Assembly (NCBI RefSeq): GCF_044647545.1
Contig: NZ_CP172818.1
Length of the DNA stretch: 64,000 bases
Direction: 5' to 3' (one strand)
From: Escherichia coli
GTDB lineage: Bacteria; Pseudomonadota; Gammaproteobacteria; Enterobacterales; Enterobacteriaceae
Each line of letters opens with the position of its first letter. Positions within the stretch are counted from its first letter, which is position 1. A program made the translations under genes and the position numbers. Shown here one piece after another: positions 10,929-45,270 of the stretch. The notes beneath the pieces were generated by a model. It saw only the letters and a list, made by a program, of their open reading frames with translations, ran no database searches and was not told the origin of the DNA.

Positions 10929-11028
10929 ATGACCGGATAAAGAACTGGTTACGTCGCTCCTTCATCTTCTTTAACTCTTACAAAACCCAAAGAATTCTTC
11001 ACCTTTCATTTCCCTATTCTTTTTCTCC

Positions 11029-11094
<66 letters not shown>

Positions 11095-11105
11095 ATCAAA
11101 AAAAA

Positions 11106-38293: not shown

Positions 38294-40555
38294 ATGACAA
38301 TTCTTAATCACACCCTCGGTTTCCCTCGCGTTGGCCTGCGTCGCGAGCTGAAAAAAGCGCAAGAGAGTTATTGGGCGGGGAACTCCACGCGTGAAGAACT
38401 GCTGGCGGTAGGGCGTGAACTGCGTGCTCGTCACTGGGATCAACAAAAGCAAGCAGGTATCGACCTGCTGCCGGTGGGTGATTTTGCCTGGTACGATCAT
38501 GTCCTGACCACCAGCCTGCTGCTGGGTAACGTTCCGGCGCGTCACCAGAACAAAGATGGTTCGGTAGATATCGACACCCTGTTCCGTATTGGTCGTGGAC
38601 GTGCGCCGACTGGCGAACCTGCGGCGGCGGCGGAAATGACCAAATGGTTTAACACCAACTATCACTACATGGTGCCGGAGTTCGTTAAAGGCCAACAGTT
38701 CAAACTGACCTGGACGCAGCTGCTGGAGGAAGTGGACGAGGCGCTGGCGCTGGGCCACAAGGTGAAACCTGTGCTGCTGGGGCCGGTTACCTGGCTGTGG
38801 CTGGGTAAAGTGAAAGGTGAACAGTTTGATCGCCTGAGCCTGCTGAACGACATTCTGCCGGTTTATCAGCAAGTGCTGGCAGAACTGGCAAAACGCGGCA
38901 TCGAGTGGGTACAGATCGACGAACCCGCGCTGGTACTGGAACTACCGCAGGCGTGGCTGGACGCCTATAAACCCGCTTACGACGCGCTCCAGGGGCAGGT
39001 GAAACTGCTGCTGACTACTTATTTTGAAGGCGTAACACCAAATCTCGACACGATTACTGCGCTGCCTGTTCAGGGGCTGCATGTGGACCTTGTACATGGT
39101 AAAGATGACGTTGCTGAACTGCACAAGCGCCTGCCTTCTGACTGGCTACTGTCTGTGGGTCTGATCAATGGTCGTAACGTCTGGCGCGCCGATCTTACCG
39201 AGAAATATGCGCAAATTAAGGACATTGTCGGCAAACGTGATTTGTGGGTGGCATCTTCCTGCTCACTGCTGCACAGCCCCATCGACCTGAGCGTGGAAAC
39301 GCGTCTTGATGCAGAAGTGAAAAGCTGGTTTGCCTTCGCCCTACAAAAATGCCATGAACTGGCACTGCTGCGCGATGCGCTGAACAGTGGTGATACGGCG
39401 GCTCTGGCAGAGTGGAGCGCTCCGATTCAGGCGCGTCGTCACTCTACTCGTGTACATAATCCGGCAGTAGAAAAGCGTCTGGCGGCGATCACCGCTCAGG
39501 ACAGTCAGCGTGCGAATGTCTATGAAGTGCGTGCTGAAGCCCAGCGTGCGCGTTTTAAACTGCCCGCGTGGCCGACCACCACGATTGGTTCCTTCCCGCA
39601 AACTACGGAGATTCGTACCCTGCGTCTGGATTTTAAAAAGGGTAATCTCGACGCCAATAACTACCGCACGGGCATTGCGGAACATATCAAGCAGGCCATT
39701 GTTGAGCAGGAACGTTTGGGACTGGATGTGCTGGTACATGGCGAGGCCGAGCGTAATGACATGGTGGAATACTTTGGCGAGCATCTGGATGGCTTTGTCT
39801 TTACGCAAAACGGTTGGGTACAGAGCTACGGTTCCCGCTGCGTGAAGCCACCGATTGTTATTGGTGACGTTAGCCGCCCGGCACCGATTACTGTGGAGTG
39901 GGCAAAATATGCGCAATCCCTGACTGATAAACCGGTGAAAGGGATGTTGACCGGCCCGGTGACTATTCTCTGCTGGTCGTTCCCGCGTGAAGATGTCAGC
40001 CGTGAAACCATCGCCAAACAAATTGCGCTGGCGCTGCGTGATGAAGTGGCCGATCTGGAAGCCGCTGGAATTGGCATCATCCAGATTGACGAACCGGCTC
40101 TGCGCGAAGGTTTACCGCTGCGTCGCAGCGACTGGGATGTGTATCTCCAGTGGGGCGTAGAGGCCTTCCGTATCAACGCCGCCGTGGCGAAAGATGACAC
40201 ACAAATCCACACTCACATGTGTTATTGCGAGTTCAACGACATCATGGATTCCATTGCGGCGCTGGACGCAGACGTCATCACCATCGAAACCTCGCGTTCC
40301 GACATGGAGTTGCTGGAGTCGTTTGAAGAGTTTGATTATCCAAATGAAATCGGTCCTGGCGTCTATGACATTCACTCGCCAAACGTACCGAGCGTGGAAT
40401 GGATTGAAGCCTTGCTGAAGAAAGCGGCAAAACGCATTCCGGCAGAGCGTCTGTGGGTCAACCCGGACTGTGGCCTGAAAACGCGCGGCTGGCCAGAAAC
40501 CCGCGCGGCACTGGCGAACATGGTGCAGGCGGCGCAGAATTTGCGTCGGGGGTAA
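38294..40555 (+). CDS. metE: cobalamin-independent methionine synthase
   Basis: 753-aa [33 protein letters not shown]...; divergent from metR. Confidence 0.95.
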
Positions 40556-40565
40556 ATCCCAAACT

Positions 40566-40594
40566 GGGTGGCAAACACCACCCGGTCTTTTCTC
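40566..40594 (+). terminator. terminator hairpin between convergent metE and ysgA
   Basis: gggtgg-caaaca-ccaccc stem-loop followed by ggtcttttctc. Confidence 0.5.
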
Positions 40595-40595
40595 A

Positions 40596-41411
40596 TTACA
40601 GCGACTTCTTCCCACCATACTGTGTAAACCATTCCAACATTCGCTGCCAGCCGTCTTTCGCAGACTCGGCATGATAGCTCGGACGATAATCGGCGTTGAA
40701 CGCATGCCCGGCATCCGGGTAGACGATAATCTCTGCTTTCGCGTTTGCTGCCCGCAGCGCCTGGCGCATCGTTTCAACGCTCTCCTGCGGAATGCTGTTA
40801 TCCTGGCCGCCATATAAGCCGATAACCGGCGCGTTAAGATCGGTTGCGATATCAACAGGCTGTTTCGGTGAATTCAGCGTCTTATCGCCGGTTAATTTGC
40901 CGTACCATGCCACCGCTGCTTTCAGTTGTGGATTATGCGCAGCATACAGCCAGGTGATGCGCCCACCCCAGCAAAATCCGGTGATCATTAAGCGATGAAC
41001 ATCGCCGCCGTTGCGTGACGCCCAACTGGCGACATGATCGAGATCGGCCAGCACCTGCGAGTCAGGCACTTTTGCTACCAGACCGCTAAGCAGCGTAGGG
41101 ATATCGGCAAAATCATTCGGATCGCCTTCGCGGAAGTAAAGTTCAGGTGCGATAGCCAGATACCCCTCCAGCGCCAGACGGCGACAAATATCGCGGATAT
41201 GTTCATGCACGCCAAAAATTTCCTGCACTACAATGACCACTGGCAGTGGGCCATCGCTTTGCTTTGGTCTGGCATGGTAAGCAGGCATGTTATCCCCTTG
41301 TGAAGGGATAGAGGTGAAGCCCGCCACAATCGCGTCGTCCGGAGTCTGAACGATGGTCGAAGCGAGAGGCGATGCAGCAGGTGCAAATCCAGATTGTTGT
41401 GTTGTTGCCAT
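40596..41411 (-). CDS. ysgA: dienelactone-hydrolase-family protein
   Basis: 271 aa from ATG at 41411 ([16 protein letters not shown]...). Confidence 0.85.
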
Positions 41412-41531
41412 GGTATTCTCCGTACCCTTATAAAAATGTTGCGCAATGTTAACTATAGTCAGCATGCAACAAATCACATTGCCTGAATCGGCTCATCTTT
41501 TATGCAGTCCTGCAGAATGAAGAGTGATTTA

Positions 41532-41547
41532 TGTGATTTGCATCACT
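41532..41547 (+). promoter_or_regulatory. CRP binding site in the udp promoter
   Basis: tgtga-tttgca-tcact fits TGTGA-N6-TCACA. Confidence 0.6.
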
Positions 41548-41583
41548 TTTGGCGGGTAAATTTATGCAACGCATTTTCGTCAT

Positions 41584-41599
41584 GGTGATGAGTATCACG
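41584..41599 (+). promoter_or_regulatory. second CRP-like site in the udp promoter
   Basis: ggtga-tgagta-tcacg. Confidence 0.5.
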
Positions 41600-41672
41600 A
41601 AAAAATGTTAAACCCTTCGGTAAAGTGTCTTTTTGCTTCTTCTGACTAAACCGATTCACAGAGGAGTTGTAT

Positions 41673-42515
41673 ATGTCCAAGTCTGATGTTTTTCATCTCG
41701 GCCTCACTAAAAACGATTTACAAGGGGCTACGCTTGCCATCGTCCCTGGCGACCCGGATCGTGTGGAAAAGATCGCCGCGCTGATGGATAAGCCGGTTAA
41801 GCTGGCATCTCATCGCGAATTCACCACCTGGCGTGCAGAGCTGGATGGTAAACCTGTTATCGTCTGCTCTACCGGTATCGGCGGCCCGTCTACCTCTATT
41901 GCTGTTGAAGAGCTGGCACAGCTGGGCATTCGCACCTTCCTGCGTATCGGTACAACGGGCGCTATTCAGCCGCATATTAATGTGGGTGATGTCCTGGTTA
42001 CCACGGCGTCTGTTCGTCTGGACGGCGCGAGCCTGCACTTCGCACCGCTGGAATTCCCGGCTGTCGCTGATTTCGAATGTACGACTGCGCTGGTTGAAGC
42101 GGCGAAGTCAATTGGTGCCACCACTCACGTTGGTGTGACGGCTTCTTCTGATACCTTCTACCCGGGTCAGGAACGTTACGATACTTACTCTGGTCGCGTA
42201 GTTCGTCACTTTAAAGGTTCTATGGAAGAGTGGCAGGCGATGGGCGTAATGAACTATGAAATGGAATCTGCAACCCTGCTGACCATGTGTGCAAGTCAGG
42301 GCCTGCGTGCCGGTATGGTAGCGGGGGTTATCGTTAACCGCACCCAGCAAGAGATCCCGAATGCTGAGACGATGAAACAAACCGAAAGCCATGCGGTGAA
42401 AATCGTGGTGGAAGCGGCGCGTCGTCTGCTGAAATTCTCTTTCTCCTGTCAGCCCTGGGTGAAGGCATCCCATCTTCATCTCCAGGATGCATTCACCGAA
42501 ATCGAATCGGGATAA
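41673..42515 (+). CDS. udp: uridine phosphorylase with a 27-codon C-terminal extension in this sequence
   Basis: [40 protein letters not shown]...; codons 1-253 end in ...VEAARRLL as recalled for K-12 Udp, but codon 254 is AAA and the frame continues to 42515. Confidence 0.85.
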
Positions 42516-43700
42516 AACATCAAATAACTCCCCTCATAAATCTGGAAATCTAATTTTTTTTCAACTACTGCCCATTTCGCATTTGCCGGTAACCTATCAC
42601 ATGCATACCCTGATGGATCGCGTTTTCAGGCCGGTTCCATCGACACACCTGAATTTTTTCTCTTCGCCACGCATCACTTCGGCATTTCACCTTCTTTAAT
42701 CACCCAGCATGATTCAGCATTTCTCTCTGTGATAACACGTCAACTGCTTCGCCAGACCCTCGAATGACCGCAAGGTAAATAACTGCTGTTGCCACCCTTC
42801 GCACTCCGACATCCGCAAGCCATACCGCATGGGTTTTCGACCATCCCGCAGACACGTAAAACGTATCTGGAAACTCCTCACGTTTCTCCTGGAGGTAATT
42901 TCATGATCCCCAGAATTCACGTTTTTCTTTGATCTTGATTCGCCAAAACGCCATGCCCGAACGATGACTTCCCCATCCAGGATTAAATCTAAGTTCTGCA
43001 TTATCTTTCCTTTAATCATTTTATTTATCTTTCGGACGTCTTACCCCACCCATTCACGGATATCTCTTCTGCACAGGATTTGACGAAGTGCCACTTCAAC
43101 CCCACGACATATACTGTACTCGACAGAAATACCGCCACAATTTCATCCCGCTTGTAAACCCTCAACGCAACGGATATCGGCTCTTTCCTTCCAATCAAAA
43201 CAAAACCACTCCAAACGACGCATGTTCTAATAAAGCGCCCATTTTGTTTCATCACCACAGGCTTTACCGCCACTTTCTTCTTTCGTTAGATCAATCCTCC
43301 GATCCGTGATTCCATCATCGATCCTCTGACGCATTTCCACCCCCTGACTTTGATCTTCTCCAGATACAGCACTTCTCGCCTTCAACGATCCCCAGATGCA
43401 CGGTTCCAGTTAACCAACGTTCAAAACCGCAATTTTACACGAGTCTTTCCATCTCTCACTGAATCGATCATTTCACCCATTTACCCTCGTGACACGCAGT
43501 AACTTTTCCACAAACTGACTAAACATGTTTCTCCTCGTCCTGAACTCCCGATAATTTTAGTCACACGTTATAAACACATTAAGAACCGCCATCCACGTAA
43601 TAACGTTTCCGCCTCGTGTTGAAGAGGTTTCTCCCACTCACTTCTCTATGATATTCTGAATTTCCACATAATGACGTGGGGAAAAAGTGATATATCCCAC
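42516..43700. other. G-depleted (+ strand), ORF-free tract of about 1.2 kb between udp and rmuC
   Basis: about 13% G against about 30% C in sampled 60-nt lines; only short ORFs without recognisable protein features; right boundary approximate. Confidence 0.8.
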
Positions 43701-43842
43701 AATATAAACCCATCTCATATTGTGGATAAATAATGAAAATTAACATTTTTGCGTAGCGCCTCGCAGGAAACTTCTTTCAAACTGGACGTTTGTACAGCAC
43801 AATTCTATTTTGTGCGGGTAAGTTGTTGCGTCAGGAGGCGTT

Positions 43843-45270
43843 GTGGATTTCTCAATCATGGTTTACGCAGTTATTGCATTGGTGGGTGTGGCAATTGGCT
43901 GGCTGTTTGCCAGTTATCAACATGCGCAGCAAAAAGCCGAGCAATTAGCTGAACGTGAAGAGATGGTCGCGGAGTTAAGCGCGGCAAAACAACAAATTAC
44001 TCAAAGCGAGCACTGGCGCGCTGAGTGCGAGTTACTCAATAACGAAGTGCGCAGCCTGCAAAGTATTAACACCTCTCTGGAGGCCGATCTGCGTGAAGTA
44101 ACCACGCGGATGGAAGCTGCACAGCAACATGCTGACGATAAAATTCGCCAGATGATTAACAGCGAGCAGCGCCTCAGTGAGCAGTTTGAAAACCTCGCCA
44201 ACCGTATTTTTGAGCACAGCAATCGCCGGGTTGATGAGCAAAACCGTCAGAGCCTGAACAGCCTGTTGTCGCCGCTACGTGAACAACTGGACGGTTTCCG
44301 CCGTCAGGTCCAGGACAGCTTTGGTAAAGAAGCCCAAGAACGTCATACCCTGACTCACGAAATCCGCAACCTCCAGCAACTCAACGCCCAGATGGCCCAG
44401 GAAGCGATCAACCTGACGCGTGCGCTGAAAGGCGACAATAAAACCCAGGGCAACTGGGGCGAGGTAGTATTGACGCGGGTGCTGGAGGCTTCCGGTCTGC
44501 GTGAAGGGTATGAATATGAAACCCAGGTCAGCATCGAAAATGACGCCCGCTCGCGGATGCAGCCGGATGTCATCGTGCGGTTGCCGCAGGGAAAAGATGT
44601 GGTGATCGACGCCAAAATGACGCTGGTCGCCTATGAACGCTATTTCAACGCTGAAGATGACTACACACGTGAAAGCGCGCTACAGGAGCATATCGCGTCG
44701 GTGCGTAACCACATCCGCTTGCTTGGACGCAAAGATTATCAACAGTTGCCGGGGCTGCGAACCCTGGATTACGTGCTGATGTTTATCCCCGTTGAGCCAG
44801 CATTTTTATTGGCACTGGATCGCCAGCCGGAGCTGATCACCGAAGCGTTGAAAAACAATATCATGCTGGTTAGCCCGACTACGCTGCTGGTGGCGCTGCG
44901 CACTATCGCCAACCTGTGGCGTTATGAGCATCAAAGCCGCAACGCCCAGCAAATCGCCGATCGTGCCAGCAAGCTGTACGACAAGATGCGTTTGTTCATC
45001 GATGACATGTCCGCGATTGGTCAAAGTCTCGACAAAGCGCAGGATAACTATCGCCAGGCAATGAAAAAACTCTCTTCAGGTCGCGGAAATGTGCTGGCGC
45101 AGGCAGAAGCGTTTCGCGGTTTAGGGGTAGAAATTAAACGCGAGATTAATCCGGATTTGGCTGAACAGGCGGTGAGCCAGGATGAAGAGTATCGACTTCG
45201 GTCGGTTCCGGAGCAACCGAATGATGAAGCTTATCAACGCGATGATGAATATAATCAGCAGTCGCGCTAG
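43843..45270 (+). CDS. rmuC: DNA recombination protein RmuC
   Basis: 475-aa ORF from GTG 43843 (MDFSIMVYAVIALVGVAIGWLFA...), coiled-coil rich. Confidence 0.9.
   Translation: MDFSIMVYAVIALVGVAIGWLFASYQHAQQKAEQLAEREEMVAELSAAKQQITQSEHWRAECELLNNEVRSLQSINTSLEADLREVTTRMEAAQQHADDKIRQMINSEQRLSEQFENLANRIFEHSNRRVDEQNRQSLNSLLSPLREQLDGFRRQVQDSFGKEAQERHTLTHEIRNLQQLNAQMAQEAINLTRALKGDNKTQGNWGEVVLTRVLEASGLREGYEYETQVSIENDARSRMQPDVIVRLPQGKDVVIDAKMTLVAYERYFNAEDDYTRESALQEHIASVRNHIRLLGRKDYQQLPGLRTLDYVLMFIPVEPAFLLALDRQPELITEALKNNIMLVSPTTLLVALRTIANLWRYEHQSRNAQQIADRASKLYDKMRLFIDDMSAIGQSLDKAQDNYRQAMKKLSSGRGNVLAQAEAFRGLGVEIKREINPDLAEQAVSQDEEYRLRSVPEQPNDEAYQRDDEYNQQSR

What the first reader, a model, noticed from the sequence alone, without database searches (positions are those of the whole stretch)
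43697..43725. Inverted repeat upstream of rmuC at the edge of the anomalous tract
ccacaatat-N11-atattgtgg is a 9-bp perfect inverted repeat about 120-145 nt upstream of the rmuC GTG, in the first stretch of normal composition after the G-poor tract. It could be a regulator binding site, a small hairpin at a transcript end, or the true boundary of native sequence.
Basis: seen in the sequence. Interest (0 to 1): 0.2.

Follow-up and report, generated by a model that had tools for sequence, protein, structure and literature searches.

The report
Damaged operator of lost IclR regulator
The small palindrome upstream of rmuC is a damaged copy of the predicted DNA-binding site of an IclR-type regulator from a sugar-acid gene island that only some E. 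coli carry; it is not an rmuC control element and is ordinary.

Summary
The 9-bp inverted repeat is at 43697-43725 as described. On its own it is unremarkable: about 6 such repeats are expected per 64-kb window. It is a damaged copy of a longer palindrome, TATCCCACAATAT-N12-ATATTGTGGGATA. That palindrome occurs once in 1456 of 5426 complete E. coli genomes and is absent from K-12-type genomes. In those 1456 genomes a 5.6-kb island lies between udp and rmuC. It encodes an IclR-family regulator, a 2-dehydro-3-deoxygalactonokinase, a KDPGal aldolase and TctCBA. The palindrome lies 60-100 nt upstream of the regulator gene. It resolves into two 17-bp IclR-type sites with centres 19 nt apart. The same pair, in direct or inverted orientation, precedes orthologous regulators in Klebsiella, proteobacterial MAGs and the myxobacterium Vitiosangium. 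It matches a published IclR tandem-site class. I read it as the island regulator's operator. It is not an rmuC site, because rmuC has its own invariant LexA box at 43780-43799. It is not a terminator and not a boundary. In the window the regulator gene is destroyed. The whole remnant (42451-43747, including the repeat) has lost about half of its + strand Gs. Two other tracts in the window are also garbled, which points to corruption of the sequence record rather than biology.

The parts
43697..43725 (.). The reported 9-bp perfect inverted repeat, CCACAATAT-N11-ATATTGTGG. It is formed by the outer half-sites of the two boxes listed below.
   Evidence: The native form is TATCCCACAATAT-N12-ATATTGTGGGATA (L002 10524-10561).
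43694..43710 (-). Regulator-proximal 17-bp IclR-type site. Natively the minus strand reads AGTTTATATTGTGGGAT. It contains a -10-like TATATT on the minus strand (43701-43706). The window copy is intact except for the last base, next to a deleted T.
   Evidence: 15-nt core invariant in 7 natural Escherichia sequences. The -10 reading is inference from the sequence only.
43712..43727 (-). Regulator-distal 17-bp IclR-type site. Natively the minus strand reads ATCCCACAATATGAGAT, a near-perfect palindrome. The window copy is 16 nt because one G of GGG is missing.
   Evidence: The site is 14/15 identical to the box upstream of the Vitiosangium orthologue.
43661..43677 (+). Tentative third, weaker box, TTTCCACATAATGACGT. 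Its centre lies 33 nt from the proximal site.
   Evidence: 10/15 match in E. coli and in strain SCPM-O-B-8794. It is less conserved in E. whittamii. Weak evidence.
43021..43637 (-). Destroyed remnant of the IclR-family regulator gene (intact form WP_000852398.1, 255 aa). The start codon is changed and there are dozens of frameshifts.
42451..43020 (-). Destroyed remnant of the 5' two-thirds of the 2-dehydro-3-deoxygalactonokinase gene. The rest of the island (about 4 kb) is missing.
42451..43747 (+). G-depleted tract. About 52% of + strand Gs are deleted relative to intact relatives. The loss depends on sequence context. The tract includes the repeat itself.
43780..43799 (+). LexA (SOS) box AACTGGACGTTTGTACAGCA, the documented type of control element for rmuC/yigN.
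   Evidence: Invariant across Escherichia and Klebsiella. rmuC/yigN is listed as an SOS gene (PMC6590174). Salmonella yigN has one SOS box 44 bp from its ATG (PMC8072944).
43843..45270 (+). rmuC (GTG start, 475 aa).

Best explanation
The repeat is a relic of a tandem operator for an IclR-family transcription factor. In intact genomes an accessory island sits between udp and rmuC. Its six genes lie in series on one strand: the IclR-type regulator, a 2-dehydro-3-deoxygalactonokinase, a KDPGal aldolase and the TctC/TctB/TctA transporter. I infer that they form a single operon transcribed away from rmuC. The regulator-rmuC intergenic region carries two 17-bp sites of the form ATCCCAYAWTRTGGGAT with centres 19 nt apart. 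The outer half-sites of the pair form the long inverted repeat. By analogy with other IclR-family proteins, a dimer of dimers (tetramer) would bind both sites on one face of the DNA and cover the promoter; a -10-like TATATT lies inside the proximal site. This would repress the operon until a sugar-acid effector such as D-galactonate or 2-keto-3-deoxygalactonate releases the protein. What is shown: the sequence, its position, its conservation and its match to a published motif class. What is inferred: binding, repression, the effector, the promoter and the operon structure. In this window the regulator gene is destroyed and the site is damaged. One G is missing from a half-site and the centre spacing is 18 nt instead of 19. 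As written, the window copy is a non-functional orphan. It has no demonstrated role in rmuC expression.
For: The island and its gene order are annotated in BLR(DE3), ST648 and IMT16316. The native 93-nt region occurs exactly once in 1456 of 5426 genomes and never in the others. K-12-type homology resumes at 43745. The protein is an IclR-family member; its nearest named families are BhcR, KdgR and PcaR, all below their cut-offs, and it matches the structures of IclR, KdgR and TtgV. A box pair with 19-20 nt spacing lies about 75-110 nt upstream of orthologous regulators in E. whittamii, Escherichia sp. E1V33, K. spallanzanii, K. indica, five proteobacterial MAGs and Vitiosangium. Sphingomonas also has two boxes, but 15 nt apart. 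About half of all matches of at least 10/15 in these 5.7-kb loci fall within the 310 nt upstream. In Vitiosangium the kinase and aldolase genes follow the regulator, as in E. coli. Within Escherichia the 15-nt box cores are invariant or carry single changes, while the four central spacer bases take six forms in seven sequences. Published comparative genomics gives the IclR group-1 motif GKTYCRYW3-4RYGRAMC. It reports tandem sites 18-22 nt between centres in 94 orthologous groups, interpreted as tetramer binding (PMC8222616). Its supplement lists gTCCCAcAaTATGGGAT with a partner site 20 nt away for AZC_2272/2273 and relatives. A dgoK + IclR-type TF + TTT transporter locus has been predicted to serve D-galactonate use in another bacterium (PMC5507952).
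Against: There is no experimental binding, footprint or transcription start-site data for this regulator. The consensus promoter scan found no minus-strand promoter, so the promoter-overlap step rests on a 5/6 -10 match with a poor -35. Citrobacter amalonaticus (62% identical regulator) and the Bifidobacterium homologues show no such boxes. The box consensus was derived from the E. coli site, so the Escherichia hits are circular and the MAG loci are related to one another. The window copy differs from every natural allele.
Confidence: 0.8

Rival explanations
1. The palindrome is a binding site for a regulator of rmuC.
For: It lies 118-146 nt upstream of the rmuC GTG in a divergent intergenic region. 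A weak + strand promoter-like match (ATGATA-16-CATAAT, 9/12) lies upstream of it in intact genomes. In island-bearing strains a bound protein could therefore in principle affect rmuC-directed transcription.
Against: It is absent from about 73% of E. coli genomes, which keep the same 95-nt rmuC upstream region. That conserved region holds an invariant LexA box, the documented type of rmuC control element. The promoter-like match is no more than chance predicts, at 1.0 expected in the scanned region. The motif tracks the IclR regulator across phyla, including loci that have no rmuC neighbour.
Confidence: 0.05
2. The palindrome acts as an RNA or DNA hairpin: a terminator, a 5'-UTR structure or a transcript-end stabiliser.
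For: The native sequence folds stably, at -16.1 kcal/mol (+ strand) and -20.3 kcal/mol (- strand), with z-scores near -4.7. The window copy folds at -9.3 and -13.1 kcal/mol.
Against: Any perfect inverted repeat scores this way. There is no T-run and no terminator call at the site. Rfam gives no match. The flanking genes diverge, so no transcript ends here. In Klebsiella and the MAGs the two boxes are direct repeats that cannot pair. Arm substitutions in U14A-type, 382634_2f and SCPM-O-B-8794 alleles have no compensating change.
Confidence: 0.04
3. The repeat is a chance palindrome in AT-rich intergenic DNA with no function.
For: A 9-bp repeat with a spacer of 20 nt or less is expected about 6 times per window. 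The 15-mer box with up to 3 mismatches is not enriched in the window as a whole (2 found, 1.3 expected).
Against: The native arms are 13 bp. The box sequence, its pairing and its 19-20 nt spacing recur upstream of orthologous regulators as far away as Myxococcota. They also match an independently published motif.
Confidence: 0.08
4. The repeat marks the true boundary between native sequence and the anomalous tract.
For: It lies near the mild end of the G-depleted tract.
Against: Deletions relative to intact alleles occur inside the repeat and at 43728 and 43745-43747. The tract ends at 43747/43748, exactly where K-12-type homology begins.
Confidence: 0.02

Closest known systems
Tandem IclR-family operators of the group-1 motif type (Suvorova & Gelfand 2021, PMC8222616), in particular the AZC_2272/2273 - Cseg_2734/2735 - M446_4911 group
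   Same: A 17-bp palindrome with a YCRY-W3-RYGR core. The published site gTCCCAcAaTATGGGAT compares with ATCCCACAATATGAGAT here. A second, weaker site lies 19-20 nt away. The sites sit in the divergent region upstream of the regulator and next to sugar-acid genes.
   Different: The published group is alphaproteobacterial and its regulog contains dehydrogenase and enolase-superfamily genes. The searches of that paper's supplement did not turn up an entry for the Escherichia/Klebsiella regulator with kinase, aldolase and TctCBA; the stored files are truncated and were searched only by term. The published sites are themselves predictions, not footprints.
TtgV-operator complex of Pseudomonas putida (PDB 2XRO)
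   Same: An IclR-family protein that binds as a tetramer to a long operator made of two adjacent pseudo-palindromic sites overlapping a promoter. It is a sequence relative of this regulator (E = 3.8e-11).
   Different: A different effector class (aromatic solvents), a different operator sequence and a 42-bp operator. Binding is demonstrated for TtgV and only inferred here.
KdgR and its KDG-regulon operators in Enterobacteriaceae
   Same: An IclR-family repressor of 2-keto-3-deoxy-sugar-acid uptake, kinase and aldolase genes. It is the second-best NCBIfam match.
   Different: The score is far below the KdgR equivalog cut-off (129.7 against 275 bits), so this protein is not KdgR. From my own knowledge, the KdgR box is based on TGAAA/TTTCA half-sites, which is not this sequence.
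LexA box of rmuC/yigN
   Same: A palindromic operator in the same intergenic region.
   Different: A different sequence (CTG-N10-CAG at 43782-43797) and a different protein. It is conserved in all genomes examined, whereas the reported repeat is island-specific.

Membership tests
IclR-family tandem operator (group-1 motif type) | 17-bp palindromic site with a YCRY-W3-4-RYGR core | tested here: met
   The native distal site ATCCCACAATATGAGAT has the core CCAC-AAT-ATGA. The proximal site keeps one good half. The consensus comes from PMC8222616. The window's distal site has lost one G.
IclR-family tandem operator (group-1 motif type) | A second site with 18-22 nt between centres | tested here: met
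   19 nt in native Escherichia, 20 nt in Klebsiella and Vitiosangium, 19 nt in the MAGs. The window copy has 18 nt after loss of a spacer T.
IclR-family tandem operator (group-1 motif type) | Lies upstream of an IclR-family gene or its regulated operon | tested here: met
   Site centres lie about 70 and 89 nt upstream of the regulator ATG in intact genomes. In the window the gene itself is destroyed.
IclR-family tandem operator (group-1 motif type) | The motif is conserved upstream of orthologous regulators (phylogenetic footprint) | tested here: met
   No boxes were found in C. amalonaticus or Bifidobacterium.
IclR-family tandem operator (group-1 motif type) | Direct, effector-sensitive binding by the cognate protein | not testable with these tools
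   Needs EMSA or footprinting. No publication was found.
Intrinsic (Rho-independent) terminator | G+C-rich stem with a short loop followed by a T-run, at the end of a transcription unit | tested here: not met
   No terminator call at the site. The only call is at 43746-43769. The stem is AT-rich, the loop is 11-12 nt and the genes diverge.
LexA/SOS box | CTG-N10-CAG core | tested here: not met
   The repeat lacks this core. The real box is at 43780-43799.
REP or other dispersed palindromic repeats | Many copies per genome | tested here: not met
   One place per genome in all 1456 genomes that carry it. The 15-nt box consensus (up to 3 mismatches) matches only at this site in the window.
Known structured RNA (Rfam) | Match to a covariance model | tested here: not met
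   No match with E <= 1 in 41000-45000.

The most novel reading that the evidence does not exclude
The G-depleted tract that contains the repeat could be real DNA rather than a corrupted record. In that case a localised, strand-specific process would have removed about half of the guanines from a decaying accessory island, with the operator near its fading edge. One fact fits nothing tidy. The 15 nt just after udp (42436-42450) read almost exactly like the island-free allele carried by most E. coli. They can also be derived from the kinase gene by G losses. This would hint that the island-free allele descends from such a decayed intermediate.
Probability: 0.03. Interest if true: 0.85.

Novelty: new member of a known kind. 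Interest (0 to 1): 0.12.

Why it matters
The finding matters little for rmuC biology, because the repeat is not an rmuC element. It has modest value as a clean predicted operator and regulon for an uncharacterised IclR-type regulator. The regulon comprises a kinase, an aldolase and a TTT transporter, probably for D-galactonate or 2-keto-3-deoxygalactonate. It is carried by about a quarter of E. coli, including BL21/B strains and ST131- and ST648-type pathogens. The motif is conserved as far as myxobacteria. The practical lesson is larger. Three stretches of this window are corrupted, so any feature read from them, this repeat included, should be checked against intact relatives first.

Tried and rejected
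- **Rfam scan** of 41000-45000 at E <= 1 found nothing.
- **Promoter and terminator scans** of the window and of the intact locus gave no minus-strand promoter and no terminator at the repeat.
- **Box consensus search** across the 64-kb window found only the site itself, with no enrichment.
- **Literature searches** for the island, for an IclR-type DgoR and for the literal sequence found no characterisation of this regulator.
- **Tracing the window's source** failed. The window-specific extended Udp protein is not on record in public assemblies. A 30-mer from the G-depleted tract has no exact match in metagenome contigs. No complete E. coli genome matches the tract better than 83%.
- **Locus L007** (strain SCPM-O-B-8794) was considered as the source or as a relative with the same damage, and rejected. 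It is a naturally divergent lineage with ordinary transition-dominated substitutions and a block deletion.
- **Reference-guided consensus** was considered, because the clean island-free junctions might have been K-12 reference sequence carried over. This was rejected: those junctions carry natural SNPs and indels relative to K-12.

Full report
**1. The observation**

The sequence CCACAATAT / 11 nt / ATATTGTGG is at 43697-43725. It lies 118-146 nt upstream of the rmuC GTG at 43843. Taken alone it is not statistically notable. Dinucleotide shuffles of the window give 6.0 +/- 3.0 perfect 9-mer inverted repeats with 0-20 nt spacers, and the real window holds roughly 17 distinct ones.

**2. Genomic context**

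The window is E. coli.
- The rmuC-ubiB stretch is 100% identical to ST648-lineage genomes.
- Against strain IMT16316 the whole window is essentially identical outside a few segments.
- In 1455-1456 of 5426 complete E. coli genomes, including B strains such as BLR(DE3), a 5.6-kb island lies between udp and rmuC.
- All island genes are on the strand opposite to rmuC. They encode an IclR-family regulator, a 2-dehydro-3-deoxygalactonokinase, a KDPGal aldolase and TctC, TctB and TctA.
- K-12-type genomes lack the island. Their homology to the window stops at 42450 and resumes at 43745.

The repeat therefore lies in island-specific DNA, in the divergent region between the regulator gene and rmuC. 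A 93-nt native segment around it is found once in exactly 1456 genomes and nowhere in the remainder.

**3. The window copy is damaged**

The window was aligned to BLR(DE3) and to ST648.
- Positions 42451-43747 are the remnant of the kinase 5' part, the regulator gene and the intergenic region.
- 263 bases are deleted, 218 of them G on the + strand. That is about 52% of the Gs in the tract.
- 18 of the 31 substitutions are also at G.
- The loss depends on context. A G after A is lost 80% of the time. A G before A is kept 78% of the time.
- No open reading frame longer than 101 aa survives on the minus strand, and the regulator's start codon is altered.

The native palindrome is TATCCCACAATAT-N12-ATATTGTGGGATA, with 13-bp arms. 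Further deletions follow at 43728 and 43745-43747. The repeat is therefore inside the anomalous tract, not beyond it.

**4. What the native element is**

The regulator is an IclR-family protein. Its nearest named families are BhcR, KdgR and PcaR, all far below their cut-offs. It also matches the solved structures of IclR, KdgR and TtgV.

Read in the regulator's direction, the palindrome resolves into two 17-bp sites:
- ATCCCACAATATGAGAT, the distal site, a near-perfect palindrome;
- AGTTTATATTGTGGGAT, the proximal site, with one good half.

The site centres are 19 nt apart and lie about 89 and 70 nt upstream of the ATG.

A scan of loci that encode orthologous regulators found the same arrangement:
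- E. whittamii and Escherichia sp. E1V33: identical boxes.
- K. spallanzanii and K. indica: TCCCTATATATGGGA (TCCCTATATATGAGA in K. indica) and TCCCTATTTATAAGA, 20 nt apart, in the same orientation.
- Five proteobacterial MAGs: TCCCACATACTAATA and a TACCACATAATGAGA-type box (one or two base changes between MAGs), 19 nt apart, direct.
- Sphingomonas: two boxes, but 15 nt apart.
- Vitiosangium (Myxococcota, regulator 50% identical): TCCCACAATATGGGA, a 14/15 match, with a weaker partner (10/15) 20 nt away. Kinase and aldolase genes follow the regulator, as in E. coli.

About half of all matches of at least 10/15 in these 5.7-kb loci fall within the 310 nt upstream of the regulator. The Escherichia hits are circular, because the consensus came from E. 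coli. The hits outside Escherichia are not.

Within Escherichia the 15-nt box cores are invariant or carry single changes, while the four central spacer bases take six forms in seven sequences. One arm change gives TCCCATAATATGAGA in the allele sampled from strain U14A. It comes from the 95-99% identity band, which holds 609 genomes. It alters a position that is Y in the orthologues, and no compensating change occurs in the other arm.

**5. Comparison with published work**

Suvorova and Gelfand (PMC8222616) describe the IclR group-1 motif GKTYCRYW3-4RYGRAMC. They report that regulators in 94 orthologous groups have tandem palindromic sites with 18-22 nt between centres, and they interpret this as tetramer binding on one face of the DNA.

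Their supplement lists, for AZC_2272/2273 and relatives, gTCCCAcAaTATGGGAT with a weaker partner 20 nt away. That is the same motif and the same architecture.

A dgoK + IclR-type TF + TTT transporter locus has been predicted to serve D-galactonate utilisation in Salinivirga (PMC5507952).

**6. Likely mechanism**

The following steps are inferred, not shown. A tetramer of the island's regulator binds both sites. It covers a promoter whose -10-like TATATT lies inside the proximal site. This represses the regulator-kinase-aldolase-tctCBA operon until a sugar-acid effector releases the protein.

The consensus promoter scan did not confirm a promoter on that strand. This step is therefore weak.

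**7. Rival readings**

- **rmuC regulation.** The 95 nt before rmuC that all E. coli share contain AACTGGACGTTTGTACAGCA at 43780-43799, invariant from Escherichia to Klebsiella. rmuC/yigN is a listed SOS gene (PMC6590174). Salmonella yigN has one SOS box 44 bp from its ATG and is induced 19-fold (PMC8072944). The palindrome is dispensable for that arrangement.
- **Hairpin or terminator.** Folding energies are only what any perfect repeat gives. There is no T-run and no Rfam match. The box orientation is not conserved.
- **Boundary marker.** Refuted by the alignments.

**8. The anomalous tract and the state of the window**

Three tracts are garbled relative to otherwise near-identical genomes.
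- **10961-11098.** G dropout begins on entering an accessory gene. The sequence then drifts into about 55 nt of poly(A) and rejoins the native sequence at an A-run, skipping about 430 nt.
- **24716-25654.** This is a SAM-hydrolase-family gene. Its length is kept but there are 229 differences, mostly substitutions toward C, with long C, T and A runs. The damage is mild at the edges and heavy in the middle.
- **42451-43747.** The G-depleted island remnant, with about 4 kb of the island missing.

All three coincide with DNA that K-12-type genomes lack. Shared DNA is clean, with 0 mismatches over 6.8 kb in one block. Other island-free junctions in the window are natural alleles, not K-12 sequence.

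The window-specific extended Udp protein is not in public assemblies. A 30-mer from the tract has no exact match in metagenome contigs.

I conclude that these tracts are corruption of the sequence record, either technical or deliberate, and not biology. I could not identify the process.

One detail remains unexplained. The 15 nt after udp (42436-42450) match the island-free allele, as in strain Z1323CEC0014, with one extra T. They can also be derived from the kinase gene by G losses.

**9. Verdict**

The repeat is real in the sequence. Functionally it is an orphaned, damaged copy of a conserved IclR-type tandem operator from an accessory sugar-acid island. It is a new member of a known kind and of low interest for rmuC.

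Noticed in passing
window 42451-43747: G-depleted tract. Relative to intact island-bearing genomes, about 52% of + strand Gs are deleted (218 of 263 deleted bases). The loss is context dependent (G after A lost 80% of the time, G before A kept 78%). It is strongest around 43270-43560. About 4 kb of the island (tctABC, the aldolase and the kinase 3' end) is missing to the left. No complete E. coli genome matches the tract better than 83%.
   Followed up: partly
window 24716-25654: Second garbled tract. A SAM hydrolase/halogenase-family gene between uvrD and yigE keeps its length but has 229 differences from IMT16316. Most are substitutions toward C, with homopolymer smears (C runs, T20, A13). 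The damage is mild at the edges and heavy in the middle. This segment is absent from K-12-type genomes.
   Followed up: partly
window 10961-11098: Third garbled tract, between aslA and hemY. On entering an accessory hypothetical gene the sequence loses Gs, drifts into low complexity and collapses into about 55 nt of poly(A). It rejoins the native sequence at an A-run, and about 430 nt are skipped.
   Followed up: partly
window 42436-42450: The 15 nt after udp (TCTCTTTCTCCTGTC) match the island-free allele of most E. coli with one extra T. They can also be derived from the kinase gene (TGCTCTTGTGCTGCTGTC) by three G deletions and one G>C change. As a result udp lacks its normal stop and runs on to 42515. 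The origin of this hybrid junction is unexplained.
   Followed up: partly
window 43780-43799: LexA/SOS box AACTGGACGTTTGTACAGCA upstream of rmuC, invariant across Escherichia and Klebsiella. A candidate promoter (TGGACG-17-TATTTT, 8/12) overlaps it; the promoter reading is by eye only.
   Followed up: partly
window 43746-43769: Terminator-like hairpin TTTTTGCGTAGCGCCTCGCAGGAA followed by ACTTCTTTC, at the point where K-12-type homology resumes. K-12-type genomes have a separate udp terminator (GGCCGACGCGTTCGGCC followed by TTTTGT) just upstream of it.
   Followed up: no
window 27740, 33733-33782, 40552-40603: At three sites where ST648-lineage genomes carry accessory DNA, the window has clean, natural island-free junctions. 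The accessory segments are YPO3983/DUF943 genes, an Rpn-family nuclease gene and an 8.5-kb fdrA-arcC-cytosine permease cluster. The flanks are otherwise identical to that lineage.
   Followed up: partly
L007 (E. coli strain SCPM-O-B-8794 contig NZ_JAATUR010000057.1): A divergent Escherichia lineage, about 8% diverged and transition-dominated. It carries the island with a natural deletion of about 107 bp in the regulator gene. It keeps both operator boxes, with one arm substitution.
   Followed up: partly
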